64,000 nt of DNA, taken from positions 63,321 through 127,320 of IMG/VR virus record IMGVR_UViG_3300012964_000010. One strand, 5' to 3'. Made by a program: the position numbers and the translations under genes. The stretch is from a virus. The stretch's first letter is position 1; every line of letters begins with the position of its first letter. The notes under the pieces were generated by a model, which did not search any database, was not told where the DNA came from, and was given only the letters and a program-made list of their open reading frames with translations. Shown here piece after piece: positions 40,986 through 56,161 of this stretch.

Positions 40986-41048
40986 TCAGAATGTGCTTTT
41001 TAGTTTCATTTACTGTGAAATTGTTTTAATTTGCTGAATACATTCTTT
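40986..41048 (-). ncRNA. Y-RNA-like element (copy 6) with GTA anticodon-like hairpin
   Basis: AGAATGT/ACATTCT stem, TTCAGCAA motif, TTTCA-CAGTAAA-TGAAA. Confidence 0.72.
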
Positions 41049-41055
41049 AGGAATC

Positions 41056-41141
41056 TGGTGGAGCAGATAGGATTCGAACCTATTCAGCCTAAGGCGCCTG
41101 ATTTACAGTCAGGAGAGACTCTCCAACGTCCCCGCTACTCC
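41056..41141 (-). tRNA. tRNA-Tyr(GTA)
   Basis: CCTGA-CTGTAAA-TCAGG, long variable arm. Confidence 0.9.
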
Positions 41142-41148
41142 AAATTTT

Positions 41149-41223
41149 CCATATTAAAACACACTGCTGTCCACTTCAGCCAGCGCGCCAGAGGGATTCG
41201 AACCCAAGTGTGTTTTAATATGG
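41149..41223 (-). ncRNA. long-stem RNA enclosing a T-arm
   Basis: 17-bp stem CCATATTAAAACACACT/AGTGTGTTTTAATATGG around GGGTTCGAATCCC and a D-like segment. Confidence 0.55.
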
Positions 41224-41345
41224 AAATAGCAGCCAGGGAGTCACGTTTGCTTATTCTGTCCACTGTGTAGTTTGCTTTCTCTTGAGCTTTGCCGCTAAAC
41301 GAACCGCATTACTCCGCTACAGTCCCTTGCGAGGACGCCACATTA

Positions 41346-41477
41346 CCATATTAAAACATACTACGGAGTCGAACCGCCTTGCCGCGACTTCCCCACCGGG
41401 GGTTTTGACATCTTCCAGTAGCAGAATTTCCGCCGCTAAACGGATCTGATAGTAAATGCTAATATGTTTTAATATGG
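41346..41477 (-). ncRNA. second long-stem RNA enclosing a T-arm
   Basis: CCATATTAAAACATA/TATGTTTTAATATGG stem around GCGGTTCGACTCCGT. Confidence 0.5.
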
Positions 41478-41548
41478 TAGGCCCGTTCGGTAACGATCCG
41501 AATTTTACTGGTTAAAAGCCAGTTACTTCACCTTAAAGTTTCAAGCCC
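41475..41548 (-). tRNA. tRNA-Lys(TTT), atypical T-loop
   Basis: ACTGG-CTTTTAA-CCAGT; T-loop ATCGTTA. Confidence 0.82.
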
Positions 41549-41711
41549 ATATATAATCTGTATCGATTGTCTTTTTCGTGCCAATCGAAGATCATACATG
41601 GGATCTAAGATTGACACATGCGTTTTGCATGTTTCATAATTTTTCCTAATTATAGTGGAGCACACTATAGCAGACTTGCACTGCTCACTGTTTTTCTTTA
41701 ATGCACTCTAA

Positions 41712-42545
41712 TATAATTCGGAGGATTGAGACTACATCCTTCACGTTAGAACTTTGGAGATTATAGTAAACCTTGCGAGTTCACCTTCTTCCGATATCCA
41801 CATAAACCCTTAGCGGTATCTATGTATCCTAACAACATCGCCGTTTTAAGTCAGGCGGTAGACTTGACATGATGTTCTACTCTGTGTTTTCTTTCCCGTC
41901 TGCCTTGCGAGCAGTTCACAGTCGCTAAACCGTTCCGAAACGTCTTTCACAAACTAATGTTGCCTTGCGAGCTTCATTAGACTTAGTTACCTTGCGGCCT
42001 AAGTATTAGATGTCTTTCAAACATCACCGAAGTAGTCTTTGCGTTTAGTTCATATAACAAAAATGAGTGTCTTCCGACAATCTACTGTGATGTGCTACTT
42101 CAGTTGCTGAATATCTTGTTAGATACCCAATACAACACACCACGTACCGTTCACCTGCCGGTTAATAAGTCGTCTTTCACGATCAATGTCATTTTGAGTG
42201 CCACTAACCATTCATACTGCATATAAGCCCTTGCCTGCGAAAACTCGGACAAATACACTACCCTTTCTCATACTATCTGACAAGTTGGTTTGTTGTGAGG
42301 TCAGCACCACCTGTTACTCTTTGTTAACTGGCGTTCCCCTTACGGGCGTCTAAGTTAACATTCTTTCCACAACACTTGCTTCAATATTACCTCACCCGGT
42401 GTTATCAGATAAGGATGCCTTTCGGCACTGAGCAGGCTTGCATAGGTGAACCATTTAACTGGCGCTGGTATGTAGACATTCCAGCTTTGGGTGTATTGCT
42501 ACACTTATTCTAAAGAGACTATGCTCCCAAGTCTTTATACAAATA
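41712..42545 (-). ncRNA. large structured RNA, GOLLD-like candidate
   Basis: ~830 nt without a credible ORF; repeated GCAA/GAAA tetraloop hairpins; located inside a phage tRNA cluster. Confidence 0.6.
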
Positions 42546-42649
42546 CATTCTTTGCATTTGTATAAAGACTTGCTTTATACGTTAGTTAATTGCTTAACAT
42601 GTATCTATTGTAGTATAAACATACTGCAACGTCAACCTGGTTTAGACGA

Positions 42650-43558
42650 TTATTTCTTCAAGAATTGCAACTTGTTAGCCCAATACATTGTCCATTTCTT
42701 GTATGTTGCATTTGTATGCTCCATATCAAGATTTGCAGGAATACATAGATCACTGGCGTATGCACCGGGCAAACCTTGCGAAGAATTTGCTGCTTTTCTT
42801 AAGATATTATGCAACTCTTCAATTATGGTAGGATCAATATCGGATCTTGCAACTATTTGGTAATTACTAACTAAATTTTCAAATCCCGAAATACCAGCAC
42901 TATTAAAAGAACTAAAGTATGAATGATTTCCACTACCACTGGATCCAATTGCATTCAATTTGCCATCTACAATATATTGTTGTAAAAATGCAGGAAGATC
43001 GACATTAAGGTCAAGATTGCCTCCAATAACATCAAGTGTTGGTTGCAATGTGCCTTGATAACCAATAAAAATTAATTCAGTATTAGGCAGGGCAAGTTGA
43101 AGTTGGCGAGCAAGCGCTTCTGTTAGACTACCCTGGATCATACCGATGCTAAGTCGTTTCTGTTTCCTGAGGTCATTAATTGTTTTATATTTGGCGCTGG
43201 TAATAATATATGGTTGACCGGTACACTCGATTAAAACAGGACGGAAGTCCTCAACCCGATAACTTTGGTCGGGATAAAACTGTGGACGGACAAAAAAACT
43301 ACTTGAACTACTTAATAATGCAATACCTTTGTAGTTTGATACATAATTTGCTGCTATTGTGCCGCCGGCACCGGGCTTATTTTCAAAGATAAAATTATAT
43401 TTGTCTTGTTGAATATTAGCTTCTGCAATAATCAACCTAATAAAATTAGCCTGTTGACTTCCGATTGCAAATGGCCATACAATGGGTACAGTTTGTTTTT
43501 CAGTAGCAAAAACTGAAAAAGAAATCATAGCAAGTAACATAATAATTATTTTTTTCAT
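42650..43558 (-). CDS. Bug/TctC family solute-binding protein
   Basis: ENKPGAGGTIA, YQG...TLDVIGG.LD and DGKL.AIG motifs. Confidence 0.8.
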   Translation of the reverse strand: MKKIIIMLLAMISFSVFATEKQTVPIVWPFAIGSQQANFIRLIIAEANIQQDKYNFIFENKPGAGGTIAANYVSNYKGIALLSSSSSFFVRPQFYPDQSYRVEDFRPVLIECTGQPYIITSAKYKTINDLRKQKRLSIGMIQGSLTEALARQLQLALPNTELIFIGYQGTLQPTLDVIGGNLDLNVDLPAFLQQYIVDGKLNAIGSSGSGNHSYFSSFNSAGISGFENLVSNYQIVARSDIDPTIIEELHNILRKAANSSQGLPGAYASDLCIPANLDMEHTNATYKKWTMYWANKLQFLKK

Positions 43559-43644
43559 ACATCCCTATTAATAAAATAAAAGGTGCGGAAAAATCGCACC
43601 TTTTATTTAGTGATATATAAGTATGATACAACAAATATTGATAC

Positions 43645-44340
43645 TTAATGTAATTCAGACATCGGAATATGTTGTTTGATACAACGAAGATCCCACAATA
43701 TTTCAATAAATTGCTCTGCGAGTCTTGCTGCCTTCATTTGTGCATCCTCATCTATTACTAGTTGTTCTAGAGAATGACGACCAAGACTCGCATGAAATTT
43801 TTCATCTGCAGCAATCTCGGCGTACTTTGTTCGGATTAATTCGTTTGGCGCGCACTCTGCTTGCATTAACCAATTTCTGTGCGCCATTCCTTCGGCGATA
43901 TATTGATATACTGCTAGCGCAATCGGATCATCTGCGCATTCAAATCGTTCTAGTAGTTCTGCAGGACGAATAGTTTCGGTGTTAGCATCACTTAATTGTT
44001 TCTGACGAATTTTTTCTAAAGTTGCTTCAACATCAAGTTCATGTCCTAACATATCTTCAACAATTTCCTTAACATACATGAAGTGTTTAGCTTCGTCGAA
44101 TGCTTGTTTACTTAGAAGAAACATTTCTTTTGCTGAGGTATTGACAGATAATGCCCCAACTCGCTTGCTAATCTGAACACAATTCATACGTTCGTTGATC
44201 ATACGACGAGAGAAATATTCAATCATATCTTCTTTAGATGGTTTAGATTCGAAATATGATTTCACACTCCTCTCATGAAATTGATAAAGTGGTTCACAAT
44301 CCTGTGCTAATTTTTCTGTAAATTGTTTCGGTGTTAACAT
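43645..44340 (-). CDS. ferritin-like di-iron protein
   Basis: Two ExxH motifs (DEAKH, DEKFH) in a helical protein. Confidence 0.7.
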   Translation of the reverse strand: MLTPKQFTEKLAQDCEPLYQFHERSVKSYFESKPSKEDMIEYFSRRMINERMNCVQISKRVGALSVNTSAKEMFLLSKQAFDEAKHFMYVKEIVEDMLGHELDVEATLEKIRQKQLSDANTETIRPAELLERFECADDPIALAVYQYIAEGMAHRNWLMQAECAPNELIRTKYAEIAADEKFHASLGRHSLEQLVIDEDAQMKAARLAEQFIEILWDLRCIKQHIPMSELH

Positions 44341-44351
44341 ATTAGTTCTCC

Positions 44352-45317
44352 TTAGAATTTCTTACCATTTGAAAGGCTGCTAAGTAACCCAGGACTAAAA
44401 TATGTATTATACTTGTTGTACAAACCTCTGGTAGCAAGTTCAAAACGACTACGCTCTTTGGTAGACATTTTAATTGTAGGTATACCTTCTGCTGCTGCTT
44501 TTGTTTGAATAATTGTATTATCAGCTAGACTATCTTCTCTCTCGATTTTAGCAGCACGCATGGCTGCGGCGGCGAAGATTTTTTGCACGTCTTCACCAAG
44601 TTTCTCCCAACACTGTTTATTAATAACTAAGCTAGTCAAGAATAGACTATGCTCGTTGTCGTTAATATAGTTGGTATGTTTATTTTGTTCAAGAATAAAA
44701 TAGCGAGTATAAGTAGTTTCACCGCCATCTATCTCATTAAATTCGAGCTTTGATGTAAGATCTTCGATAAAAGTAGGAATTGGTGTAGCTCCGACAACAG
44801 CAAAGGTATCCATAGAGACTGGATTCTTGCCACAACCGATGTTCAATTGATAAAAATCTTCCAATTTTTCAATTGCGTGTTTACTCGGGACAATACGAAA
44901 ACCGCCACTATATGTGAATGTTAACCCGCGAATATTACTGTGATCGGCAACCTTGGCTAACATTTTCTGACCAATTTCCCCATCAATTACCTTTTGTGCA
45001 ATGTCATGATCATTAAAAAGGAAAGGCATTGACAATGCAAACATATCCTTATCGATATTACCGAGTGTATTAGCATACACAGTGGCCATGTCAATCGTAC
45101 CGTTATTGATTAAATTAATAATCTTTTCACGATCTGTGGTTAGATTGGTTAGATTTTGATCTGCTAATCTATTCCATTCTTTTAAATCAATAACATTTAT
45201 CTTATAACGACCATTTGTTTCAGCAAATATTTCATCAGAGAAACTCTGCGCCGCTTTAATAAAAACATGATAAGGCTCGTGTGCTAATACCCAATTCAAT
45301 GTAGTACATTGTGACAT
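44352..45317 (-). CDS. TRAP transporter solute-binding protein (DctP family)
   Basis: ETNGR..I, G.IDMA, L.MPFLF, GFR and IDGGE motifs. Confidence 0.8.
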   Translation of the reverse strand: MSQCTTLNWVLAHEPYHVFIKAAQSFSDEIFAETNGRYKINVIDLKEWNRLADQNLTNLTTDREKIINLINNGTIDMATVYANTLGNIDKDMFALSMPFLFNDHDIAQKVIDGEIGQKMLAKVADHSNIRGLTFTYSGGFRIVPSKHAIEKLEDFYQLNIGCGKNPVSMDTFAVVGATPIPTFIEDLTSKLEFNEIDGGETTYTRYFILEQNKHTNYINDNEHSLFLTSLVINKQCWEKLGEDVQKIFAAAAMRAAKIEREDSLADNTIIQTKAAAEGIPTIKMSTKERSRFELATRGLYNKYNTYFSPGLLSSLSNGKKF

Positions 45318-45399
45318 AATAAATCCCTAGATAAACTGTTATATGTTATTTATCACTGCCAATAAATTAACAGATAATCAAGAGAAGATATTATATCAG

Positions 45400-45843
45400 T
45401 TATTGAGATAGCAATTCTTTAGCACACCTAGAAGCAACTGCACCGTCGTATAATCCTTCGAAGCGAAACTTAAATTCTTTCAACAGCAGCCCCATTGCCT
45501 TAGGGCCAGTAAGATTAAGTTCGCTAATCAATTCAGTGAGTTTAAGTTTAATATCATCTTCACTGAGCTGAACCGGAATAAACTTATTAAGAATATTATT
45601 TTCTTCATTTAATGTAGAAATTGTCTCACCGTCAGTTACCTGGGCGAGTGTAAGGTTGTTGTTGTTCAGAAATTTCTTAACTACTGCAATAGTCTCCGCA
45701 TCAGTTGTATCGCGTCCTGCATTCTTGCCAATCATTGTTGCTTCAGACAACAATGTTGTAAGGAGTGAGGATGCTTTGGCATTTCGCGCCTTGCGTGCTT
45801 CAATTGAAGCAGCTTTAATTTTTGCTAAGAGAATCATATTCAC
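45400..45843 (-). CDS. GatB/YqeY domain protein
   Basis: ARKAR, IL.KFIP.QLSED and KAMG...K...G.YDG motifs. Confidence 0.85.
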   Translation of the reverse strand: MNMILLAKIKAASIEARKARNAKASSLLTTLLSEATMIGKNAGRDTTDAETIAVVKKFLNNNNLTLAQVTDGETISTLNEENNILNKFIPVQLSEDDIKLKLTELISELNLTGPKAMGLLLKEFKFRFEGLYDGAVASRCAKELLSQ

Positions 45844-45864
45844 CTTTCAATCTAACATTATATT

Positions 45865-45954
45865 TGGAGGAAGATGTGGGATTCGAACCCACGGACCGTT
45901 TTAATGATCGTCACTTTAGCAAAGTGATGCAATAAACCTCTCTACCAATCTTCC
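45865..45954 (-). tRNA. tRNA-Ser(GCT)
   Basis: TCACT-TTGCTAA-AGTGA, long variable arm. Confidence 0.9.
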
Positions 45955-45959
45955 ATATC

Positions 45960-46036
45960 TGGCAACCCCTGTCGGACTCGAACCGACGTCTTTATGGCTC
46001 AGAACCATACCGCTCTTCCTGTTAAGCTACGAGGCA
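45960..46036 (-). tRNA. tRNA-Gln(CTG)
   Basis: TATGG-TTCTGAG-CCATA. Confidence 0.8.
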
Positions 46037-46039
46037 ATA

Positions 46040-46477
46040 TTATTTCTTTACTGCAATCATGAGCACTACACAACCAGATTCGTTGTCTTCGAGTTCCATT
46101 GAGTGTATCTTTTCATGATTGAATTCATATACATGATTTAATTCTACAATTGCTGTTTCGTCTTCTGCTGTAATTTGCGAATCACCATCTGGCAGTATGA
46201 CCGGAATAACAAAGGTTCTTGGTTCAAAGACTGCTTGATCCAACAGATCTATGTGTGGCTCAGCACCTTTGCATACACTGAAATATACAAAATCTAACTT
46301 CGATTTATCAACACCTGCAATCTTACCAACACTTTCTAATACAGCATCGTTGGATGCTCTGTGTGTTTGAAACTTTTTAGGTGTGTTTGTCTTGTAATTC
46401 TCAAACTTTATACATTCTGCATTATCTACAATAGATTGTGGAATACAGATATCTCCGTGATTAATAATCTTATTCAT
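46040..46477 (-). CDS. 2OG-Fe(II) oxygenase-like protein
   Basis: PHID...distal HS facial-triad pattern. Confidence 0.45.
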   Translation of the reverse strand: MNKIINHGDICIPQSIVDNAECIKFENYKTNTPKKFQTHRASNDAVLESVGKIAGVDKSKLDFVYFSVCKGAEPHIDLLDQAVFEPRTFVIPVILPDGDSQITAEDETAIVELNHVYEFNHEKIHSMELEDNESGCVVLMIAVKK

Positions 46478-46499
46478 TAAGTTTCCCGAGTTTCTCTAA

Positions 46500-46594
46500 T
46501 GGCGCCGCAGACTGGACTTCGTACCAGTATCTCAGAGTGAACCACTAAGCATTTTTAGATTTATCAACCTATGCATATGTTAAACTACCGCAGC
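46500..46594 (-). pseudogene. degenerate tRNA-like element
   Basis: Acceptor GCTGCGG/CTGCGGC plus GCCA, distorted T arm, no normal anticodon arm. Confidence 0.5.
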
Positions 46595-46600
46595 AAAAAA

Positions 46601-46671
46601 TGGCAACCCTGGTTGGAATCGAACCAACTCTCCAAGTTTCAAAGACTTGTCCCTCTCCAAGAGTCAGGGCA
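46601..46671 (-). tRNA. tRNA-Gln(TTG), reduced D arm
   Basis: CAAGT-CTTTGAA-ACTTG. Confidence 0.7.
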
Positions 46672-46677
46672 ATATTC

Positions 46678-46752
46678 TGGGATCGCTAATGGGATTCGAG
46701 CCCATCTTTCCATCTTGAGAGGATGGCGTCCTAACCAATAGACGATAGCGAT
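46678..46752 (-). tRNA. tRNA-Glu(CTC)
   Basis: CCATC-CTCTCAA-GATGG. Confidence 0.82.
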
Positions 46753-46825
46753 ATTGTATAGTGGCCCACCGTCCTATCTTTTCGTTCGGTCTAATGTTAT
46801 ACATTTCGATAACAAAAGGCATATA

Positions 46826-46903
46826 TGGTGCCACTGGTCAGACTCGAACTGACAACACACAACTTTTCAGGCTGCTGCTCTACGCGATTGGAGCTACAGT
46901 GGC
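46826..46903 (-). tRNA. tRNA-Phe(GAA)
   Basis: Loop CTGAAAA. Confidence 0.9.
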
Positions 46904-46910
46904 ATTTTAT

Positions 46911-46983: not shown

Positions 46984-46990
46984 ATTAAAT

Positions 46991-47066: not shown

Positions 47067-47073
47067 ATACTAT

Positions 47074-47130
47074 TCAGACTACGCTTTTTTCACTATAAGT
47101 AAATTTTTAAATTTGCCGAATGTAGTCTTT
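47074..47130 (-). ncRNA. Y-RNA-like element (copy 7)
   Basis: AGACTAC/GTAGTCT stem, TTCGGCAA motif, hairpin TTTA-CTTATAG-TGAA. Confidence 0.7.
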
Positions 47131-47138
47131 AGAATTAT

Positions 47139-49418: not shown

Positions 49419-49477
49419 TCAGAATGCTTATTTTTCAATTAAAAGTTGAATTTTTAAGGTTGCAGAACGCATTCTTT
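49419..49477 (-). ncRNA. Y-RNA-like element (copy 8) with Lys(TTT) anticodon hairpin
   Basis: AGAATGC/GCATTCT stem, TTCTGCAA motif, TTCAA-CTTTTAA-TTGAA. Confidence 0.75.
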
Positions 49478-49559
49478 AGAAACTAAGTATTCTAGCCGAG
49501 ACTCATTATGTGTTAAACCAACCATGTTATAGAGGGTTGAGGTCTGGGTGCATACTTTA

Positions 49560-50203: not shown

Positions 50204-50209
50204 ATATTT

Positions 50210-50416
50210 TTATCTTACAAACATTTTCTTTAGATAATCTCGACCAATTTTGCCTTCTTCGATTTCTCGTAGTGCGGTAACGCTAGACCCGTTATCACAT
50301 GTAACCTTAGGTTCATAACCCTTCTTTAATTCTCTTGCACGTTGCGCGGCAATCAATACAAGATCAAATCTGTTCCCAACTGCTTCAGCAGCCTTTTGCG
50401 ATGTAATACGAGCCAT
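50210..50416 (-). CDS. rpoZ: RNA polymerase omega subunit
   Basis: MARITS, NRFDLVLIAAQRAREL and VTALREIEEGKI motifs. Confidence 0.92.
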   Translation of the reverse strand: MARITSQKAAEAVGNRFDLVLIAAQRARELKKGYEPKVTCDNGSSVTALREIEEGKIGRDYLKKMFVR

Positions 50417-50435
50417 ATTATCCTTCTATGTATTG

Positions 50436-50590
50436 TGGTGTCAGTGGCCGGAATCGAACCAGCAAACACAGGTTTTCATGTTGTGCCCATTACCACGCCA
50501 GTTTATACCGAGATTATCTTTTCCAGGTGCAAAAACTCTCAAGTAGTCACTATGCTTCAATGCGTCCCGACCGTCGCCGGGTTTACTGAC
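50436..50590 (-). ncRNA. tRNA-like RNA with ~80-nt insertion
   Basis: Acceptor GTCAGT/ACTGAC plus ACCA, T arm GCTGG-TTCGATT-CCGGC; 155 nt. Confidence 0.6.
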
Positions 50591-50981
50591 ATGAATATAT
50601 TATATACTAAAATAGTTTTGTGGTCAAATATTTTAAGATACAGTTTTGGTAATTGTAATACCATTTGCAGCACAATACTGGTCTCGTGCTGCAAAATAAT
50701 TCGGTTCTGTATTTGCAAGTTCGGCCATAAAATCAGATCTATGTGCCTGATCGACGTGTGTTATAACTACCCTTAGTGTTAAACCATCGGAAGATATTGC
50801 AGACGATACAGAATCTACACTTCTGGTAGAACGGTATAATTCACTAATTTTTTCTGCTATTACAGGAAATGCTTCAGCGAAGAATTTTATACTGGTGTTT
50901 GGTCTAACAAAGGTTGTAATAATTGTAATCATAATAGTTTTCCGTTATCTTCTTATATTTACCATTCCTATAACAGATAAT

Positions 50982-51059
50982 TGGTACCCACGGTCGGATT
51001 CGAACCGACACTGTACAGTTTCTAAAACTGCTGTCTCCTACCTATTGCACTACGTGGGC
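50982..51059 (-). tRNA. tRNA-Leu(TAG), short variable arm
   Basis: Loop TTTAGAA. Confidence 0.85.
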
Positions 51060-51174
51060 ATATTAAATAACCTTGCAACAATAACAAGTCTTAGAACAGG
51101 AGTTATTTCGCTCTGGGACCATTAATCCTTTTCTTTTCGGTAGTCCAAGAACCATATTATTACAAGGTTAAAAA

Positions 51175-51252
51175 TGGACGCTGAGATCAGATTTGAACTG
51201 ATGAATTTACTGTTTTGCAGACAGTTCCGTTGGACCTCTCCGGCACTCAGCG
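51175..51252 (-). tRNA. tRNA-Cys(GCA)
   Basis: ACTGT-CTGCAAA-ACAGT, U73. Confidence 0.88.
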
Positions 51253-51336
51253 ATATTAGATCGCGACGCTGCCCTTTAGGGACAGTATTAGGCAATTTAC
51301 CTTCGGACACCAGGTATACTCCGCGTCGCCATATAT

Positions 51337-51410
51337 TGGGGTGAAAGGGGGAATCGAACCCTCGCTTCTTGTTTCACAGACAAGCTTGCTACCACTACAC
51401 TACTAACACC
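51337..51410 (-). tRNA. tRNA-His(GTG)
   Basis: CTTGT-CTGTGAA-ACAAG, G-1:C73. Confidence 0.82.
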
Positions 51411-51434
51411 ATAATCAAAACTTTAGAAAATAAA

Positions 51435-51581
51435 TCAGAATTCACGTTTCTTACTCTGCTCTACCAACTGAGCTATCTTCCCTTTAAACACATTCTATGA
51501 ATGTGCTTAGTGGGAAGAGGTGGAGTTGAACCACCGACACGAGGCTTTTCATGCTAGAAAATTTTGCTGGAGGAATTCTTT
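51435..51581 (-). ncRNA. YrlA-like Y RNA (copy 9) with full permuted tRNA domain
   Basis: AGAATTC/GAATTCT stem, CTCCAGCAA motif; T arm GGTGG-TTCAACT-CCACC, closed acceptor TCTTCCC/GGGAAGA, D arm TAGCTCAGTTGGTAGAGCA. Confidence 0.82.
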
Positions 51582-51587
51582 AAAAAC

Positions 51588-51665
51588 TGGTACCCACGGT
51601 CGGATTCGAACCGACACTGTACAGATTTTGAGTCTGCTGTCTCCTACCTATTGCACTACGTGGGC
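51588..51665 (-). tRNA. tRNA-Leu(CAA), short variable arm
   Basis: Loop CTCAAAA; body identical to 50982-51059 outside the anticodon arm. Confidence 0.85.
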
Positions 51666-51838
51666 TTGAATATTATAGAGGGTCGCTGAATCGAACATTT
51701 CTTCACTGCGGAACCAGTGTGTGCTTCCATTACACCAGATGCGATTACATATAATTCTGATTAGTGATTGCAGGATTCGAACCCGATCTCCGAGCTGGAT
51801 TACCCCGGTATGCTTTCCGTTGCACTACAATATAAAAT

Positions 51839-51914
51839 TGGTTGCGAGAGGGTGGAATCGAACCACCGATCTTCAGGTTATGAGCCTGATGAGTTACCGC
51901 TTCTCCACTCCGCG
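51839..51914 (-). tRNA. initiator-like tRNA-Met(CAT)
   Basis: C1:A72, TCAGG-CTCATAA-CCTGA. Confidence 0.85.
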
Positions 51915-51922
51915 TTAAACAT

Positions 51923-51999
51923 TGGTCCGGCCTCCAGGAATCGAACCTGGTTCATGTGCTCTTCAGGCACCTGCTATGACCACATCAGCTAAAGCCGGA
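51923..51999 (-). tRNA. tRNA-Phe(GAA)
   Basis: Loop CTGAAGA. Confidence 0.82.
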
Positions 52000-52070
52000 T
52001 ATAAACTCTCGGATAGTCTGCTCTATCCTTCCCTCTCTGTAAAGTTGCAGAATACAGAAGAGGAGTACCT

Positions 52071-52149
52071 TGGCGGGCCGCATAGGACTCGAACCTATAT
52101 TAACATCCGAATTTGGAGTCCGGGATCTTGCCAATTAGAAGAACGACCC
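52071..52149 (-). tRNA. tRNA-Trp(CCA)
   Basis: CCGGA-CTCCAAA-TTCGG. Confidence 0.85.
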
Positions 52150-52167
52150 ATTACACTATTTATGATT

Positions 52168-52252
52168 TGGCTCCACGGCTTGGTGTCGAACCAAGCTTAG
52201 ACTTTCGTCTACGGATTAACAGTCCGCTGCCACACCCCGCGGCTCCCGTGGA
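52168..52252 (-). tRNA. tRNA-Asn(GTT), long variable arm
   Basis: Loop CTGTTAA; extra arm AGAC-GAAA-GTCT. Confidence 0.75.
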
Positions 52253-52405
52253 ATAAAATTTATTGAAAAACAGATAGCAAAGATCACATAACCTATCTCG
52301 AGTTCAGTTACACAATGTCCGGGCGACTAGCTTATCCGAATCATTCAACAGTTGATCAATACCATTTAAAAACACTCGCTCTTATATCTGTTTATCGATA
52401 AATTC

Positions 52406-52479
52406 TGGTAGGACCTGAAAGACTCGAACTTTCACAAACCGCTAATCGGGCAGTCATTCTACCTTTAAATTAAGGTCCT
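52406..52479 (-). tRNA. tRNA-Ile(GAT), atypical loop
   Basis: ACTGC-CCGATTA-GCGGT. Confidence 0.75.
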
Positions 52480-52487
52480 AAAATCTA

Positions 52488-52859
52488 CTAAATTAAACAT
52501 GCAACAATGCCTAAGTAGGTTAGTGCATGTAAGAACTGATCGGCACCTAATAACCACCAAAATTGCTCATGTGTAGTTGGTCCCCAGCCCATCTTTTTAT
52601 TAATGTTTACCTTTGCCCAATCAATATGATAATGAATTAACATATCAATTAATCCCATAACAACTGCCATCGGCCACGATACAAACCAAATCAGTATAAG
52701 AAATGTACCGAATCCATGCAATTTAGCGTGTAATACGCCACCTGGGTGCCAATATGTACCTTTATTCAGATACTGATACGGTTTCTGTAAAGGGAAGTCT
52801 ACAATAAAATGTTTAATAAACAACCCAAATAAGATTAATAGCACCATCGTGGTTGTCAT
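52488..52859 (-). CDS. DUF3307 membrane protein
   Basis: KHFIVDFPLQ, HYHIDWAK and GADQFLH motifs. Confidence 0.8.
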   Translation of the reverse strand: MTTTMVLLILFGLFIKHFIVDFPLQKPYQYLNKGTYWHPGGVLHAKLHGFGTFLILIWFVSWPMAVVMGLIDMLIHYHIDWAKVNINKKMGWGPTTHEQFWWLLGADQFLHALTYLGIVACLI

Positions 52860-53171
52860 ATTGTACCTTTTAGAAAATTTGCTGTGTCCTCTTCGCTAAT
52901 TTGGTCATATCGTGGAATGTCCGGATCCATCCGTCCATCTAACCAACGACGTATTTTCATCTGATATAGATCAGTTGCCTTTAAATATCCATCTTTTCTA
53001 TCGATATCATACTTTTCACCTTCACACGAAAATGTAGCGCGGCGATTGCCTTTATCAGATTCATATAAATGAATATGATAGATATATGAAGCTCTTGGGT
53101 GAGCATGTTTGATAATCTTTACCAAACCCCATTTATCTTTTTTAAAGAAATTAAACATATGTATTTTCTAT

Positions 53172-53247
53172 TGGAGCGGGTAGCCGGTATCGAACCGAGC
53201 TATTTCAGTTTGGAAGACTGGTGTGTATCCATAAACACCTTACCCGC
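53172..53247 (-). tRNA. tRNA-Gly(TCC)
   Basis: Loop CTTCCAA. Confidence 0.85.
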
Positions 53248-53341
53248 AAAATTCACGTCCGATTTCTTAACGAGGGAGACGGACCTCCTCGACTTACGGA
53301 AGAGTCTACATGTACAAGGTAAACTCTCCTATCTTATGTTC

Positions 53342-54364
53342 TTAGACTCCAGTCCAGATTAGTACATTTGTATCTTCAACCAGTTTACGGTTGATAGACG
53401 TCGACTGAATAAAGATGTCGTATTGACCATGTTTACCGGGTGCGAGTTTTACTTCACCTGTGTGTGGCAAGCCGAGCATATCGCGTGCTGCAAATCCGCT
53501 ATAAACAGCGCCTTTTTTGTCACGAATAGCAATCTGCTTGTAGTCTTGCACGTTTTCAGTCTTGGTCAACTGATAGAATGCAGAACCCTTCACTAACGGC
53601 TTTTTGGTCTTCTGTTCTACAAAATCGCGAATCTGAATTCCACCTTCAGATGGTGCAACCTTAAACACCGAAACTTCGCCAGAGACATCTACTAGGTTCT
53701 TTTTAACTTCAGTAATTGTTACATTGCTCAAATCGGCATAAAATTTGTCAGTACTCTTCACGCCGGATGCACGAGCTGCATAGAATCCTTTAAATGCAGA
53801 ACGAGTGGCTGCGGTTGCAACCTGAACACCTCGATCGCTTTGATCCCATTCGAGAATATTTCCCTCTGGGATACCGTATTGTGTCAGATTACGCTTATAA
53901 CCACGTGGGACACGGAACACAAAAGTCCAACGATCAGTTGCCTGAAGTTCTTTAATTTTACGACCAATGGACGCGCCTGTCCAATTTCTTGAAGAATTTT
54001 CTTCACCATCAGTAATAACCATTACCACAAACGACACGTTAATGTCATCTGCATCAGGTACGGCCTGAAGTTGTTCAATCAGGTCACCGACGCTGTCGAA
54101 CAACGGAGTTGAATTACCATCAGCGATGTAATCGCCATCTTTAATAGGTTTCAACATCTGCACGTTAGAATTAACAACCTCACGAACAACTGCTGCCGGG
54201 CGGCCTGCACCACATTTTACCACACTAACAATAGTGTCAATGTTATGTTCAGTGGCACCTTCCTTAATGGAGGCAATGTTATCGTTATAGTCACGACCTG
54301 CGGCCAGTGCAATATGACTCATAGAACCGCTATGATCTCGGCTAATACCTACGTAGTTCTTCAT
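53342..54364 (-). CDS. vWA domain protein
   Basis: DHSGSM, TPLFDSVG and VITDGEENSS MIDAS motifs. Confidence 0.8.
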   Translation of the reverse strand: MKNYVGISRDHSGSMSHIALAAGRDYNDNIASIKEGATEHNIDTIVSVVKCGAGRPAAVVREVVNSNVQMLKPIKDGDYIADGNSTPLFDSVGDLIEQLQAVPDADDINVSFVVMVITDGEENSSRNWTGASIGRKIKELQATDRWTFVFRVPRGYKRNLTQYGIPEGNILEWDQSDRGVQVATAATRSAFKGFYAARASGVKSTDKFYADLSNVTITEVKKNLVDVSGEVSVFKVAPSEGGIQIRDFVEQKTKKPLVKGSAFYQLTKTENVQDYKQIAIRDKKGAVYSGFAARDMLGLPHTGEVKLAPGKHGQYDIFIQSTSINRKLVEDTNVLIWTGV

Positions 54365-54427
54365 ATGTACCTTTCTGTGTAAGAATGTAAAAACTACAGT
54401 TTAAGAGTATTTTTTACTCTTGTCAAA

Positions 54428-54544
54428 TGGTGTTGCTGCCTGGGATTCGAACCCAAGATCTACTCCTTGGAATGGAAATAGATTGCTGTAAGGATCCTTA
54501 ACAGGATCACCTTTTTAGTTGTTCTACCTTTAAACTACAGCAAC
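54428..54544 (-). ncRNA. tRNA/Y-motif chimera (copy 10)
   Basis: Acceptor GTTGCTG/CAGCAAC plus ACCA, D and T arms; insert GATCCT-GTTA-AGGATC-CTTACAGCAA before TCC-ATTCCAA-GGA. Confidence 0.72.
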
Positions 54545-54618
54545 ATATTTGGTGCCAATCATTTATCCGATATATACGGCTATAAGACCAGTTAGGAATA
54601 TCGGTAATCGGCGATGAT

Positions 54619-54694
54619 TGGTGGGTTGCCAGGGAGTCGAACCCTGCTAGATCTCCTTAAGAGGGAGGTACATCTGCCGCTCTGTCAACAACCC
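54619..54694 (-). tRNA. tRNA-Lys(CTT)
   Basis: Loop CTCTTAA. Confidence 0.88.
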
Positions 54695-54700
54695 ATAATC

Positions 54701-54811
54701 TGGTGGACCGCCTGGGATTCGAACCCAGATTACCTTGTACTTACGTACGGACGGAGTCGAACCGTCTCAATCGTGATGTGCACAGTCACGGGGCGCCGCA
54801 GCCCACAGCCC
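54701..54811 (-). ncRNA. tRNA-Ala-like RNA with two T arms
   Basis: Acceptor GGGCTGT/GCGGTCC (G3.U70) plus ACCA; GACGG-TTCGACT-CCGTC and CTGGG-TTCGAAT-CCCAG. Confidence 0.65.
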
Positions 54812-54816
54812 ATTAA

Positions 54817-54887
54817 TGGCAGGCCCCGCGGATTCTCACCACTCGTTCAAGTGTTTGGATCACTTGGACATACGATATAGAAGGCCT
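54817..54887 (-). pseudogene. degenerate tRNA-Trp(CCA)-like element
   Basis: Acceptor plus CAAGTG-ATCCAAA-CACTTG; D and T arms degenerate. Confidence 0.5.
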
Positions 54888-54941
54888 ATAATTGGAGCCC
54901 GAGGCGGATATATTGAATAGTAATCCGGTATCAGGCATATT

Positions 54942-55018
54942 TGGCGTCCTTAGAGGGAATCGAACCCTACTTCTGTAACGTGAAAGGCTACCGTCCTAGC
55001 CAAGTAGACGATAAGGAC
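54942..55018 (-). tRNA. tRNA-Glu(TTC)
   Basis: Loop CTTTCAC. Confidence 0.88.
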
Positions 55019-55023
55019 ATATT

Positions 55024-55098
55024 TGGAGTCGCATACGGGGATCGAACCCGTCTGATCAGCGTGAAAGGCTGAGGACCTCACCAAAAGTCAAATGCGAC
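55024..55098 (-). tRNA. tRNA-Glu(TTC)
   Basis: TCAGC-CTTTCAC-GCTGA. Confidence 0.82.
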
Positions 55099-55099
55099 A

Positions 55100-55339
55100 T
55101 TATTTAAATTTATATCTGACAACAACTGCCAGGCATACAATATTTATACTGTAATTGAAAAGCAACGGCATGTCATGCTTAGGTAAAACATAAGCAAACA
55201 TCATTAGTTCACCTATTAACCACATGATTAAAAACATATTGGATATACCATTTGAATGTTTTTGTTTGAAGGATTCCCATGCAAGCGGTATTCCGCAGAG
55301 TGCAAGCATAATACCACCCAACCACCCGATTAATTCCAT
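55100..55339 (-). CDS. PQ-loop/SemiSWEET-like membrane protein
   Basis: ELIGWLG...LA.C..P.A..S.K.K.S.GIS pattern, three TM helices. Confidence 0.75.
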   Translation of the reverse strand: MELIGWLGGIMLALCGIPLAWESFKQKHSNGISNMFLIMWLIGELMMFAYVLPKHDMPLLFNYSINIVCLAVVVRYKFK

Positions 55340-55343
55340 AGAA

Positions 55344-55742
55344 TTACCAATCCTTAAATTCTGATATGAATCTAATACCCGCTGTCATTCCGTTTTTAGG
55401 TGGATGGTATCTAAAAGTTACCTCAGTAAGATTACCAATCTTACTAATGGGGATGTAAAATAGTTCTTCTACATCAGGTATATACACAACAAACGCGTCG
55501 ATATTTTCTTCTGTGTATGATCGTCTATTAGTAAAAGTATTATTCTCTAATTTAAGTTGAATGGTGCCAGTCTTTGTTAGGCTTCGAAACTTAATTTGGA
55601 CACGTTTTGGGCCCAATCCTGTATCTAATACAAAATCATACGGGCAATCTTGTGGCATCTTGCCAACCCAATATCCTTTCTTGGCTGCGGCTAATACAAA
55701 TGCTGCTTCGCCTATGTCACCTTTATAATTTGTTATGCTCAT
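55344..55742 (-). CDS. PD-(D/E)XK homing-type endonuclease (I-Ssp6803I-like)
   Basis: KGDIGE, PYDFV.D, RVQIK and Y....IDAF.VY motifs. Confidence 0.8.
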   Translation of the reverse strand: MSITNYKGDIGEAAFVLAAAKKGYWVGKMPQDCPYDFVLDTGLGPKRVQIKFRSLTKTGTIQLKLENNTFTNRRSYTEENIDAFVVYIPDVEELFYIPISKIGNLTEVTFRYHPPKNGMTAGIRFISEFKDW

Positions 55743-55795
55743 ATAGTATCTCCATACTATATTTAGTCCATTCGTTGGGCCGACGGATGGTATAT

Positions 55796-55870
55796 TGGTT
55801 GCCGCGGGGAATTTCGAAATCCCGACTTTTGCCTTATCAAGACACTACTCTGCCTCTGAGTTACGCGGCA
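55796..55870 (-). tRNA. tRNA-Ile(GAT)
   Basis: Loop TTGATAA. Confidence 0.85.
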
Positions 55871-55876
55871 ATAAAA

Positions 55877-55953
55877 TGGTCTCGCACACACGACTCGAAC
55901 GTGCATCTTCCACGCCCCAAACGTGGTGACTTAGCCAATTAGCCCAATGCGAG
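55877..55953 (-). tRNA. tRNA-Pro(TGG)
   Basis: CCACG-TTTGGGG-CGTGG. Confidence 0.85.
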
Positions 55954-56017
55954 AAATAAATGTTTGATTTTGTAGAGGCACAATCAGGTAGGCTTTTCAT
56001 ACTATTCAAACTAAAAT

Positions 56018-56091
56018 TGGTGCCCCATGACAGAATCGAACTGCCGTCTTCACGTTACAAAGGTGTTGTTCTACCATTTAACTAATAGGGC
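56018..56091 (-). tRNA. tRNA-Thr(TGT)
   Basis: Loop TTTGTAA. Confidence 0.85.
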
Positions 56092-56099
56092 GAAAATAA

Positions 56100-56161
56100 A
56101 CAGAGTACGCATTTGGTTTCATTAAAAGTGAAAATTTTTGTGATTGCAGTAGGTACTCTTT
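56100..56161 (-). ncRNA. Y-RNA-like element (copy 11) with Lys(TTT) anticodon hairpin
   Basis: AGAGTAC/GTACTCT stem, TACTGCAA motif, TTTCA-CTTTTAA-TGAAA. Confidence 0.75.

What the first reader, a model, noticed from the sequence alone, without database searches (positions are those of the whole stretch)
40986..56161. Stand-alone anticodon stem-loops displayed on Y-like RNAs: possible decoys for anticodon nucleases
Seen: copies 8 (49419) and 11 (56100) each hold a 5-bp stem with 7-nt loop CUUUUAA, identical to the loop of the phage tRNA-Lys(UUU), on different stems. Copy 6 (40986) has loop CAGUAAA (tRNA-Tyr: CUGUAAA) and lies next to tRNA-Tyr. Copy 7 (47074) has CUUAUAG. Established: PrrC and PARIS AriB cut tRNA-Lys(UUU); retron-associated PtuAB degrades tRNA-Tyr. 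Inference: Ro-protected anticodon mimics could titrate or trap these defence nucleases, or recruit synthetases or modification enzymes.
Basis: partly seen in the sequence, partly recalled or inferred. Interest (0 to 1): 0.88.

Follow-up and report, generated by a model that had tools for sequence, protein, structure and literature searches.

The report
Anticodon-loop look-alikes on phage Ro-partner RNAs
Three of the small RNAs scattered through this giant phage's tRNA region end in a hairpin that copies the loop of a tRNA anticodon arm, on a shared "handle" that travels with a Ro60-shaped protein gene; relatives show the same design with other anticodons, but whether they bait tRNA-cutting defence enzymes is untested.

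Summary
Copies 8 and 11 carry 5-bp stems with loop CUUUUAA, identical to the phage tRNA-Lys(UUU) loop. Copy 6 carries CAGUAAA, 6 of 7 to tRNA-Tyr, with A in place of U33. Copy 7 is better read as a 3-5-nt loop and is not anticodon-like.

All belong to a family of 11 minus-strand elements. They share a covarying 7-bp closing stem (UAAAGA-N4...N4-UCUG) and a CNGCAA bulge. The family travels with a DUF2828 gene whose model has the Ro60/TROVE fold.

Among 53 unique short homologues from related phages, 14 have a CU-NNN-AA loop on a stem of at least 4 bp (shuffles: mean 0.28, maximum 3 of 53). U33 and A37 are nearly fixed while the middle triplet varies: UUU, GUA, UGU, UGG, UUC, GUU, GUC, UAC, UCC, GGA. 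So anticodon-loop mimicry is well supported.

The decoy function is untested. The hairpins are thermodynamically marginal. PARIS AriB, by a preprint, needs contacts outside the anticodon arm. About half of the short forms carry other loops.

The handle also matches Dictyostelium Class I RNAs (Rfam RF01414) below threshold. I found no paper describing this. The scan has found the same RNA-protein system in many other genomes.

The parts
49420..49478 (-). Copy 8: short handle RNA. Apical hairpin 49434-49450, loop CUUUUAA at 49439-49445, equal to the tRNA-Lys(UUU) loop.
   Evidence: 67 bits with model R1; RF01414, 28.4 bits
56101..56162 (-). Copy 11: short handle RNA. Apical hairpin 56117-56133, loop CUUUUAA at 56122-56128.
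   Evidence: 62.7 bits; RF01414, 30.4 bits
40987..41049 (-). Copy 6: short handle RNA. Apical hairpin 41004-41020, loop CAGUAAA at 41009-41015 (Tyr anticodon GUA, but A33). It lies between tRNA-Tyr and the Shine-Dalgarno and ATG (40968) of a 125-aa ORF.
   Evidence: (67.6 bits)
47075..47131 (-). Copy 7: short handle RNA. Its hairpin 47089-47103 has a 3-5-nt loop and is not anticodon-like.
   Evidence: relative L250
39813..39878 (-). Copy 4: short handle RNA with a 7-bp hairpin (39828-39850) and 9-nt loop ACCAUUAUC. This is another conserved cargo type.
   Evidence: same loop in L120 and L280
54428..54544 (-). Copy 10: tRNA-like RNA with acceptor stem and CCA. The handle is circularly permuted and followed by a hairpin with loop AUUCCAA (54467-54473, Gly-like UCC).
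16354..16389 (-). Copy 1: minimal handle without cargo. It ends 4 nt before the GGAG of the Ro-like gene.
   Evidence: 40.6 bits; same arrangement in related records
14915..16339 (-). Ro60-fold protein gene (DUF2828 + DUF7788 + weak vWA; phrog_850 'RNA-binding protein'). Presumed partner of the handle.
17533..17638 (-). Copy 2: handle RNA with T arm then D arm (YrlA-like).
   Evidence: (YrlA 25.5 bits, gathering score 69)
17705..17814 (-). Copy 3: handle RNA with a conserved 100-nt cargo that is not tRNA-like.
39885..39973 (-). Copy 5: handle RNA with a T-arm-like cargo.
51437..51581 (-). Copy 9: handle RNA with T arm, acceptor-like stem and D arm (YrlA-like).
   Evidence: YrlA 32.8 bits, gathering score 69
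41475..41548 (-). Phage tRNA-Lys(UUU), anticodon loop CUUUUAA. Used as the reference.
41056..41141 (-). Phage tRNA-Tyr(GUA), anticodon loop CUGUAAA. Used as the reference.

Best explanation
Copies 6, 8 and 11 are small RNAs of about 60-66 nt. They are co-transcribed with the phage's tRNA array and probably released by tRNA processing.

Each has two modules.
- The first is a conserved handle: a 7-bp closing stem with fixed ends (UAAAGA...UCUG) and an unpaired CNGCAA motif. It is most likely the binding site of the phage's Ro60-fold DUF2828 protein.
- The second is an exchangeable cargo. In these three copies the cargo is a 5-bp hairpin whose 7-nt loop copies the frame of an anticodon loop (C32 U33 NNN A37 A38) with a sense anticodon: UUU twice and GUA once.

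The particle would hold out an anticodon loop to proteins that read such loops. The most plausible setting is the contest over tRNAs between phage and host. Examples are binding or distracting anticodon nucleases, or binding modification or repair enzymes. Which protein is the partner is unknown.

Shown: the family, the covarying stems, the loop frame and its conservation in relatives, the Ro60 fold, and the co-occurrence of handle and gene.

Inferred: transcription and processing, binding by the Ro-like protein, and any effect on host enzymes.
For: Family and handle:
- The 5' motif occurs 10 times in the 127-kb record. All are on the minus strand and inside the window, with 0 in the reversed-pattern control.
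- Closing stems differ in sequence but pair: 100% of cells paired, and 4 of 7 pairs show changes on both sides.
- Model R1 finds 9 copies in the window at E <= 1.

Link to the protein:
- The AF2 model of the 474-aa product (pLDDT 78.9) has Ro60/TROVE structures as its 12 best PDB matches (E 2e-9 to 2.4e-5, TM 0.39-0.60).
- All 21 records with a homologue of at least 58% identity hold the motif, against 5 of 29 with more distant homologues.
- A cargo-less handle abuts the gene's ribosome-binding site here and in at least 13 related records.
- In distant phages, handles with a variant stem still lie in the same records (14 of 30).

Anticodon likeness:
- Of 53 unique short elements, found by a motif that does not include the hairpin, 20 have a YU...R. 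7-nt loop and 14 have CU...AA. Shuffle means are 1.4 and 0.28, and 0 of 1000 shuffles reach the observed counts.
- Of all 38 seven-nt-loop hairpins in payloads, 26 have U33 and 30 have A37. Background is 195 and 185 of 579.
- The middle triplet varies through real anticodons of this phage's own tRNA set.
- Several relatives' loops equal window tRNA loops exactly: CUGUUAA (Asn), CUUGUAA (Thr), CUUCCAA (Gly), CUGUAAA (Tyr).
- The apical stem covaries: 3 of 4 pairs change on both sides, with 96.5% of cells paired.
- Phages whose Ro-like protein is only 47-50% identical also carry CUUGUAA, CUUUUAA and CUUCUAC cargos.
- In copy 10, and in relatives with a whole D-anticodon-T body, the same handle frames real tRNA parts.
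Against: No expression data: no RNA run holds the stretch.

The hairpins are AU-rich (1 G-C pair in 5). They are worth only -0.5 to -0.7 kcal/mol alone. Real anticodon stems here are 58% G+C.

Whole-element folds prefer other pairings for copies 6, 8 and 11, and copy 6 folds no better than shuffles (z -0.22).

Copy 6 lacks U33.

Only 20 of 53 short forms are anticodon-like. The rest have 3-, 5-, 6-, 8-, 9- or 11-nt loops, including conserved AUUGG and ACCAUUAUC types.

The set used for the covariation count was chosen for having such hairpins, so its 'paired' figure is partly by construction.

The elements are related by descent, so shuffle and Fisher figures overstate independence.

The protein has no Pfam TROVE match even at E <= 10 and no Ro60 match by sequence in the PDB.

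The handle lacks the CGAA-type Ro-binding motif of known Y RNAs.
Confidence: 0.6

Rival explanations
1. The anticodon mimics are decoys or traps for host anticodon nucleases. UUU loops would act against PrrC or PARIS-type enzymes and GUA loops against retron Ec78 PtuAB or colicin-E5-like enzymes. The Ro-like ring would shield the RNA ends.
For: The commonest triplets are UUU (7 of 25 framed loops), GUA, UGU and GUU. [quoted passage not shown] The window is rich in tRNA and RNA-repair functions: 50 tRNA genes, an RNA ligase, NADAR and an ADP-ribosylglycohydrolase. One 36-kb fragment (G001) carries three different mimics, GUU, UUC and UGG, which looks like a panel.
Against: Nothing here tests cleavage or binding. 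AriB cuts in the stem at 40/41 and needs the D loop and other contacts, so an isolated arm with an unrelated AU stem is a poor substrate. A cleavable decoy would have to compete with abundant tRNA. The triplets also include Pro, Val, Gly and Ser types, for which I know of no matching nuclease. U-rich triplets are also what an AT-rich genome gives. So many tRNAs are hit by some nuclease that overlap with known targets is not discriminating.
Confidence: 0.2
2. The apical hairpin is only a structural cap. Its CU...AA frame is either a relic of descent from a tRNA anticodon arm or a U-turn loop favoured for stability or for contact with the Ro-like protein itself. No outside protein reads it as an anticodon.
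For: Half of the short forms work with quite different loops. A cargo-less handle exists. The stems are weak. Copy 6 tolerates A33. The family clearly borrows tRNA parts, so inheritance of a frame is plausible.
Against: Drift from an ancestral loop should hit all seven positions. Instead position 33 is U in 26 and position 37 is A in 30 of all 38 payload hairpins with 7-nt loops, while 34-36 vary. Among the 25 loops picked for U33 and a purine at 37, entropy at 35 and 36 is 1.57 and 1.88 bits. The frame persists on stems that have changed completely and in phages with 47-50% identical proteins. No stop anticodon stands in a C/U-U...A-A/U framed loop. The looser set of 25 U33+R37 loops does hold UCA twice and UAA once, in secondary hairpins (AUUCAAC, GUUCAAU, UUUAAAC).
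Confidence: 0.2
3. The mimics recruit or occupy tRNA modification, repair or charging enzymes rather than nucleases. Examples are enzymes acting at positions 34 or 37, the neighbouring RNA ligase, or anticodon-binding domains of synthetases. This would be analogous to YrlA being a substrate of tRNA-modifying enzymes.
For: YrlA tRNA-like domains are modified by tRNA enzymes (abstract and passages of PMC4201824). An RNA ligase gene lies 2.5 kb from the Ro-like gene. The GUA, GUU and GUC triplets carry the U33-G34-U35 signal that, as I recall, suffices for tRNA-guanine transglycosylase on minihelices. This point is recalled and was not checked.
Against: No modification data. Most triplets are not of the G34-U35 type. 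Synthetases mostly need more than the loop.
Confidence: 0.12
4. The elements are not stable RNAs at all. They would be DNA or transcript signals, such as promoters, terminators or RNase processing sites between tRNA genes, and the loop resemblance is incidental.
For: They sit between tRNA genes or just ahead of ORFs. The 3' side is often followed by U-rich sequence.
Against: G-U pairs and two-sided compensatory changes point to RNA structure. Cargos include perfect T and D arms. The design equals that of expressed Class I RNAs of Dictyostelium. A 7-bp stem enclosing 40-200 nt is not a terminator.
Confidence: 0.04

Closest known systems
Bacterial and phage Ro60 (Rsr) with Y RNAs: YrlA/YrlB, Deinococcus Yrn1, Thermus phage phiLo Yrl1/Yrl2 (PMC4201824; PMC12135203; Rfam RF02553)
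   Same: A ring protein of the Ro60 fold is encoded beside small RNAs whose 5' and 3' ends form a stem next to a conserved unpaired motif. At least one RNA carries a T-arm and D-arm tRNA mimic. Chen et al. note that Yrn1 can be drawn with a 5-bp 'anticodon arm' (passage).
   Different: The protein is a DUF2828 type without a Pfam TROVE match. The motif is CNGCAA, not GNCGAA/CGAA. There are 11 copies spread over 40 kb of a tRNA array instead of one or two beside the gene. The cargo may be a bare hairpin with a true 7-nt anticodon-type loop, whereas Yrn1's loop has 6 nt. Copies 2 and 9 reach only 25.5 and 32.8 bits against a gathering score of 69.
Class I RNAs of dictyostelid amoebae (Rfam RF01414; Kjellin et al. 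2021, PMC7919456)
   Same: Length of about 60 nt. A short terminal stem kept by compensatory changes. Start AAG and end CUGU. A conserved motif ending in ACAGCAA next to the 5' strand, followed by a variable region. All 5 short copies match the whole model.
   Different: Scores are 24.7-30.4 bits, below the gathering score of 41.5. The stem has 7 bp, not 6. The source is a phage, with no DUSE promoter. The paper reports no Class I RNAs outside Dictyostelia and names an RRM protein (Rnp1A), not a Ro-like one, as binder. No anticodon-like cargo is described in the passages I read.
Phage tRNAs that neutralise tRNA-targeting defences: T5 tRNA-Lys against PARIS and T5 tRNA-Tyr against retron Ec78 (PMC11464382, PMC11555353, bioRxiv 2023.03.15.532788)
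   Same: Phage-encoded RNAs bearing Lys(UUU) or Tyr(GUA) anticodon loops in genomes with large tRNA sets. The AriB preprint's discussion raises non-productive competition with immune effectors (passage).
   Different: Those are complete, functional tRNAs that replace cut host tRNAs. The RNAs here lack acceptor, D and T arms and cannot be charged. I saw search listings and abstract starts only for these three papers. The passages are from a fourth paper, the AriB specificity preprint (bioRxiv 2025.02.04.636281).

Membership tests
Ro60/Y RNA ribonucleoprotein (YrlA type) | A protein with the Ro60 ring (HEAT-repeat TROVE part plus vWA domain) encoded nearby | tested here: met
   The 12 best PDB matches of the AF2 model are Ro60/TROVE structures over the full length (E 2e-9 to 2.4e-5, TM 0.39-0.60). 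This holds at fold level only.
Ro60/Y RNA ribonucleoprotein (YrlA type) | The protein belongs to Pfam TROVE (PF05731) by sequence | tested here: not met
   Pfam gives DUF2828, DUF7788 and weak VWA_2, with no TROVE match at E <= 10. phmmer against the PDB finds no Ro60.
Ro60/Y RNA ribonucleoprotein (YrlA type) | An RNA with a terminal stem and the conserved Ro-binding motif GNCGAAN0-1G / CGAA | tested here: not met
   The terminal stem is present and covaries. The conserved motif is CNGCAA. The motif definition comes from passages.
Ro60/Y RNA ribonucleoprotein (YrlA type) | At least one RNA with a tRNA-like T-arm and D-arm domain that reaches Rfam YrlA | tested here: inconclusive
   Copies 2 and 9 have T and D arms. 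They score 25.5 and 32.8 bits against a gathering score of 69.
Ro60/Y RNA ribonucleoprotein (YrlA type) | Physical binding of the RNA by the protein | not testable with these tools
   Only co-occurrence is available: 21 of 21 close records against 5 of 29 distant ones, plus a handle on the gene's own leader.
Dictyostelid Class I RNA (RF01414) | Reaches Rfam's gathering score | tested here: not met
   24.7-30.4 bits against 41.5 for all 5 short copies, each covering the full model.
Dictyostelid Class I RNA (RF01414) | Length of about 60 nt, short terminal stem with compensatory changes, AAG start, CUGU end, and the motif next to the 5' strand | tested here: met
   Lengths are 60-69 nt. The elements begin UAAAGA and end UCUG(U/A), with N-C-N-GCAA after a 7-bp stem. 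The features are as described in the passages.
tRNA anticodon stem-loop (structural mimic, not a tRNA) | A 7-nt loop on a 5-bp stem | tested here: met
   Met by copies 6, 8 and 11 and not by copies 4 and 7. Whole-element folds prefer alternatives. The comparative count supports the hairpin.
tRNA anticodon stem-loop (structural mimic, not a tRNA) | U33 and a purine at position 37, with a sense anticodon between them | tested here: met
   Copies 8 and 11 read C-U-UUU-A-A, 7 of 7 to tRNA-Lys. Copy 6 reads C-A-GUA-A-A, so U33 is not met there. In relatives, 26 of 38 loops have U33 and 30 of 38 have A37, against 34% and 32% in background.
tRNA anticodon stem-loop (structural mimic, not a tRNA) | Recognised by proteins that read anticodon loops (nucleases, modification enzymes, synthetases) | not testable with these tools
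   No binding or cleavage data could be obtained.

The most novel reading that the evidence does not exclude
Giant phages carry a panel of anticodon-loop baits, each held on a common handle by a Ro60-like ring. The baits intercept, inhibit or report host enzymes that cut or read specific anticodon loops. The same handle design survives in the abundant, unexplained Class I RNAs of social amoebae. That would make this an old, cross-domain ribonucleoprotein whose business is tRNA surveillance.
Probability: 0.15. Interest if true: 0.9.

Novelty: new variant of a known kind. Interest (0 to 1): 0.68.

Why it matters
Ro60 and its Y RNAs are known from animals, bacteria and a few phages, but what the RNA's variable part is for remains open. 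Here one handle carries exchangeable tRNA parts, from whole tRNA bodies down to a bare anticodon loop. This argues that the variable part is a display site for tRNA features.

If the loops do engage anticodon nucleases or modification enzymes, that would be a new kind of phage counter-defence beside spare tRNAs and RNA repair. It would give a direct test for the function of bacterial Y RNAs. It might also explain Dictyostelium Class I RNAs, whose function has been unclear since they were first described.

It also matters for annotation. These elements fill many 'spacers' in phage tRNA arrays and are in no Rfam family at threshold.

Tried and rejected
Searches that led nowhere:
- Megablast of 39700-56200 against 50,697 phage records gave only 5 short tRNA-sized matches and no close relative.
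- My first pattern had the wrong spacing and gave chance-level hits: 30 found against 26 expected.
- phmmer of the protein against the PDB gave no Ro60 by sequence.
- Sequencing runs: no RNA holder was listed. Four DNA holders are wetland metagenomes, and three of them are possible sources of this DNA. I did not lay reads, because DNA contigs cannot show expression.

Structural readings considered and rejected:
- The UUUUAA of the loop pairs with the conserved UUAAAA linker, as the minimum-energy fold of copy 8 suggests. An upstream UUAAAA is present in only 1 of 7 CUUUUAA elements that I inspected.
- A general YUNR U-turn antisense loop. Most loops (CUUU, CUGU) lack the purine at the fourth position.
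- An armless tRNA that could be charged. There is no CCA and no discriminator context, and long forms have T before D as in YrlA.
- Copies of the phage's own anticodon arms. Only the loops match; the stems are unrelated and AU-rich.

Cognate-tRNA adjacency as a rule: seen in 3 of about 20 cases, against about 1 expected, so it is not convincing.

Literature. Searches for DUF2828, for Y RNA / Ro60 / phage, for anticodon nuclease / decoy / phage and for Class I RNA returned no paper describing handle RNAs with anticodon-type cargo. Supplements were closed. The supplementary tables of Chen et al. 2014, which list phage Y RNAs, could bear on priority.

Full report
WHAT THE WINDOW IS

The window is half of a 127,320-base virus record judged about one third complete, so it comes from a very large phage. 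Every gene found runs on the minus strand. It holds 50 tRNA genes and a permuted tmRNA and a GOLLD RNA. It also holds an RNA ligase, an ADP-ribosylglycohydrolase, a non-specific nuclease and a NADAR protein. No close relative exists among 50,697 deposited phage records.

THE OBSERVATION

Copy 8 reads UUCAA[CUUUUAA]UUGAA and copy 11 reads UUUCA[CUUUUAA]UGAAA. The phage's own tRNA-Lys(UUU) has the loop CUUUUAA and its tRNA-Tyr has CUGUAAA.

Copy 6 reads UUUCA[CAGUAAA]UGAAA and starts 7 nt after tRNA-Tyr. It shares 6 of 7 loop letters with tRNA-Tyr. The differing letter is position 33, which is U in 47 of the 49 window tRNAs examined.

Copy 7 contains CUUAUAG, but its C and G pair. The fold gives a 6-bp stem with a 3-nt loop. 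Its nearest relative has a 5-nt loop AUUGG. Copy 7 is therefore not of this kind.

THE FAMILY THEY BELONG TO

A script looking for a 7-bp stem beginning AGA found the copies and showed that the stems differ but still pair. Examples are AGAAUGU/ACAUUCU, AGACUAC/GUAGUCU, AGAGUAC/GUACUCU and AGAAUGC/GCAUUCU.

The 5' motif TAAAGA-N7-C-N-GCA occurs 10 times in the whole record. All are on the minus strand and inside the window, and the reversed control gives none.

The copies fall into these types:
- Five are short (60-69 nt).
- One is a bare handle of 36 nt.
- Copies 2 and 9 carry a T arm followed by a D arm and give weak YrlA matches, 25.5 and 32.8 bits against a gathering score of 69.
- Copies 3 and 5 carry other cargos.

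A covariance model built from the handle alone recovers 9 copies at E <= 1 and nothing else.

THE PROTEIN

The ORF at 14915-16339 has DUF2828 and DUF7788 domains and a weak vWA match. It has no TROVE match and belongs to phrog_850, 'RNA-binding protein'. Sequence search of the PDB finds no Ro60.

An AlphaFold2 model built on 24 sequences (pLDDT 78.9) has Ro60 or TROVE structures as its 12 best matches over the full length. These include the Thermus phage phiLo Ro60, Deinococcus Rsr, and Xenopus and human Ro60 (E 2e-9 to 2.4e-5, TM 0.39-0.60). 'Ro-like' is therefore justified at the level of fold.

LINK BETWEEN HANDLE AND PROTEIN

I scanned 50 of the 80 virus records that the search for related loci kept as encoding a relative of the protein. 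All 21 whose protein is at least 58% identical contain the exact motif. Only 5 of the 29 more distant records do. In total there were 57 matches against 11 in the reversed control.

With the handle model, 14 of 30 records (the 29 distant ones plus G049) have a match with a variant stem. For the one case I worked out by hand (G078), it lies about 20 nt upstream of the gene.

The cargo-less handle ends four bases before the GGAG of the Ro-like gene in this window. The same arrangement is seen in at least 13 related records. This suggests the protein binds its own leader. It is an inference, but it ties handle and protein together better than mere neighbourhood does.

TEST OF THE ANTICODON READING

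A pattern scan of the virus collection, followed by a motif scan of 28 whole records, gave 79 matches against 2 in the control. With the 50 protein-defined records, I fetched the flanks of the matches and kept the 127 elements that have the closing stem. These were 77 of 89 and 50 of 54 fetched matches. They reduce to 103 unique sequences: 9 minimal, 53 short and 41 long.

The search motifs do not include the apical hairpin, so the sample is not biased towards any loop.

Results for the 53 short forms:
- 29 have at least one hairpin of at least 4 bp with a 7-nt loop.
- 20 of the 53 have a loop of the form Y-U-NNN-R-N.
- 14 of the 53 have C-U-NNN-A-A.
- A thousand dinucleotide-preserving shuffles of the payloads give means of 1.4 and 0.28, with maxima of 6 and 3.

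Among 579 chance hairpins of the same kind elsewhere in the window, 7.3% are Y-U...R-N and 0.5% are C-U...A-A.

Of all 38 seven-nt loops in payloads, 26 have U at the second position and 30 have A at the sixth. Background is 34% and 32%.

Among the 25 loops with U33 and a purine at 37, position 34 is U or G only. Positions 35 and 36 are the most variable, with entropies of 1.57 and 1.88 bits.

Triplets in clear apical hairpins are UUU, GUA, UGU, UGG, UUC, GUU, GUC, UAC, UCC and GGA. All are anticodons of tRNAs in this window. Several loops equal a window tRNA loop letter for letter: Asn, Thr(UGU), Gly(UCC) and Tyr.

The window's own tRNAs are CU-NNN-AA in 26 and UU-NNN-AA in 10 of 49. The frame that the small RNAs keep is therefore exactly the commonest frame of real anticodon loops.

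The apical stems differ among relatives: UUCAA/UUGAA, UGAA/UUCA, UCAAA/UUUGA, UUUGA/UCAAA, UUUUC/GAAAA. On an alignment of 22 such elements, three of four apical pairs show changes on both sides, 96.5% of cells pair, and slid controls pair at 29-45%.

Phages whose Ro-like protein is only 47-50% identical also carry CUUGUAA, CUUUUAA and CUUCUAC cargos.

A close relative (a complete 364,576-base record) has, on a handle like that of copy 11, the loop CUGUAAA instead of CUUUUAA. The flanking stem and positions 32, 33, 37 and 38 are unchanged.

The claim survives it.

WHAT SPEAKS AGAINST

- The hairpins are very weak. They have one G-C pair in five and are worth -0.5 to -0.7 kcal/mol when the payload is folded alone. 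Real anticodon stems here are 58% G+C.
- When whole elements are folded, the program prefers other pairings for copies 6, 8 and 11. Copy 6 folds no better than shuffled sequence.
- More than half of the short forms carry other loops. These include two conserved types: AUUGG-like 5-6-nt loops and the 9-nt ACCAUUAUC of copy 4, which is identical in two relatives.
- The elements are related by descent, so the shuffle and Fisher figures overstate independence.
- The covariation set was chosen for having the hairpin.
- No RNA data exist for this phage.

FUNCTION

Nothing here tests it. The design is one handle with exchangeable tRNA parts. These range from whole D-anticodon-T bodies in relatives, through T and D elbows, to a bare anticodon-type hairpin. 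Copy 10 is a tRNA-like RNA with acceptor stem and CCA in which the permuted handle is followed by a hairpin with loop AUUCCAA. This argues that the cargo is displayed to something that recognises tRNA features.

For the decoy idea, the commonest triplets (UUU, GUA, UGU, GUU) overlap the tRNAs named as targets of PARIS AriB and retron Ec78. These come from passages and abstract starts.

The same preprint says that AriB nicks the anticodon stem at positions 40/41 and contacts the D loop. It also says AriB did not cut a T5 tRNA-Lys given the E. coli cleavage-site letters. A stand-alone arm with an unrelated stem is therefore a poor candidate for that enzyme.

That PrrC and colicin E5 accept anticodon minihelices is my recollection and was not checked.

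I put the specific decoy reading at about 0.2. The wider reading, an anticodon-loop display on a Ro-like particle aimed at loop-reading proteins, I put at about 0.6.

COMPARISON WITH WHAT IS KNOWN

Ro60 with Y RNAs is known in bacteria and some phages. YrlA mimics the T and D part of tRNA, and Deinococcus Yrn1 can be drawn with a 5-bp 'anticodon arm' that has a 6-nt loop (PMC4201824, passages). A Thermus phage Ro60 binds two Y-like RNAs encoded upstream of its gene (PMC12135203, abstract and passages). A comparative paper on jumbo phages mentions a TROVE protein with a tRNA-like partner in a few phages (PMC7824862, passage).

The present system differs in four ways:
- its protein family (DUF2828, no TROVE match);
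- its motif (CNGCAA, not CGAA);
- its copy number and dispersal through the tRNA array;
- its true 7-nt anticodon-type cargo.

Unexpectedly, all five short copies match the whole Rfam model of Dictyostelium Class I RNAs below threshold: 24.7-30.4 bits against a gathering score of 41.5. The published description of those RNAs fits the phage elements closely. It gives a length of about 60 nt, a 6-bp terminal stem kept by compensatory changes, an AAG start, a CUGU end and an 11-nt motif beside the 5' strand. The authors found them in no other organism (PMC7919456, passages).

EARLIER NOTES OF THIS SCAN

Look-ups showed that the same handle-RNA and DUF2828 system, including anticodon-type cargo and the Class I likeness, has been reported by this scan in many other genomes. 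I reached the Rfam match and the loop statistics from my own calls. The lead to copy 10 came from a note on this window. These notes are not independent evidence.

VERDICT

The anticodon-loop mimicry is well supported by comparison with relatives. The link to a Ro60-fold protein is supported by fold and co-occurrence. The decoy function remains a hypothesis with some evidence against the PARIS case.

As far as my searches reach (supplements not seen), the system is not in print. I class it as a new variant of the Ro/Y-RNA kind.

Noticed in passing
window 39813-39878, 40987-41049, 47075-47131, 49420-49478, 56101-56162 (minus strand): All five short copies match the full Rfam model of Dictyostelium Class I RNAs (RF01414) at 24.7-30.4 bits, below the gathering score of 41.5. 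They share the AAG start, CUG(U) end, short covarying stem and ACAGCAA-type motif. The published view is that Class I RNAs exist only in dictyostelids.
   Followed up: partly
window 16339-16389 (minus strand): A cargo-less handle ends 4 nt before the GGAG ribosome-binding site of the Ro-like gene. The same layout is seen in at least 13 related virus records. This suggests that the protein represses its own translation.
   Followed up: partly
window 39828-39850 (minus strand); L120:1750-1818; L280:258-326: Copy 4 carries a 7-bp hairpin with the 9-nt loop ACCAUUAUC, identical in two relatives. Loops containing CCAUU also head the cargo of some long forms (L140, L156). This may be an acceptor-end (ACCA) look-alike.
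   Followed up: no
L250:267-327, L154:58-120, L137:831-899, and G055, G074 and G065 elements: A second recurrent cargo class has 5-6-nt loops AUUGG, UUGGG or UUUGG on AU stems. Its meaning is unknown; it might be like the GG of a D loop.
   Followed up: no
window 54428-54544 (minus strand): A tRNA-like RNA with acceptor stem, D arm, T arm and CCA. The family handle is circularly permuted between the D arm and a hairpin with loop AUUCCAA. ARAGORN does not call it.
   Followed up: partly
L253:52-276 and L258 (225 nt); L118:55-253; L147:129-338: Some relatives enclose 200-225 nt of structured, G+C-richer cargo inside the same handle.
   Followed up: no
L257:59-163 (= L288, tRNA-'Asn(att)' call): In a complete 90,740-base relative the handle takes the place of the acceptor stem around a D arm, an anticodon arm with loop CUAUUAA and a T arm.
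   Followed up: no
window 37501-38475, 42650-43558, 44352-45317, 59307-60182, 61397-62281 (minus strand): Four TctC-like and one DctP-like periplasmic solute-binding protein genes sit in a phage. This is unusual, and together with the beta-type tmRNA it hints at a betaproteobacterial host.
   Followed up: no
window 41723-42143 and 35367-35851 (minus strand): A GOLLD RNA (196 bits) and a permuted tmRNA sit inside the tRNA region.
   Followed up: no
window 48344-49108, 11056-11535, 16428-17276, 18902-19984 (minus strand): An alanyl-tRNA-synthetase-like fragment, a NADAR protein, an ADP-ribosylglycohydrolase and an RNA ligase with a PHA02142 OB fold. This gene set points to conflict over tRNA and ADP-ribosylation.
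   Followed up: no
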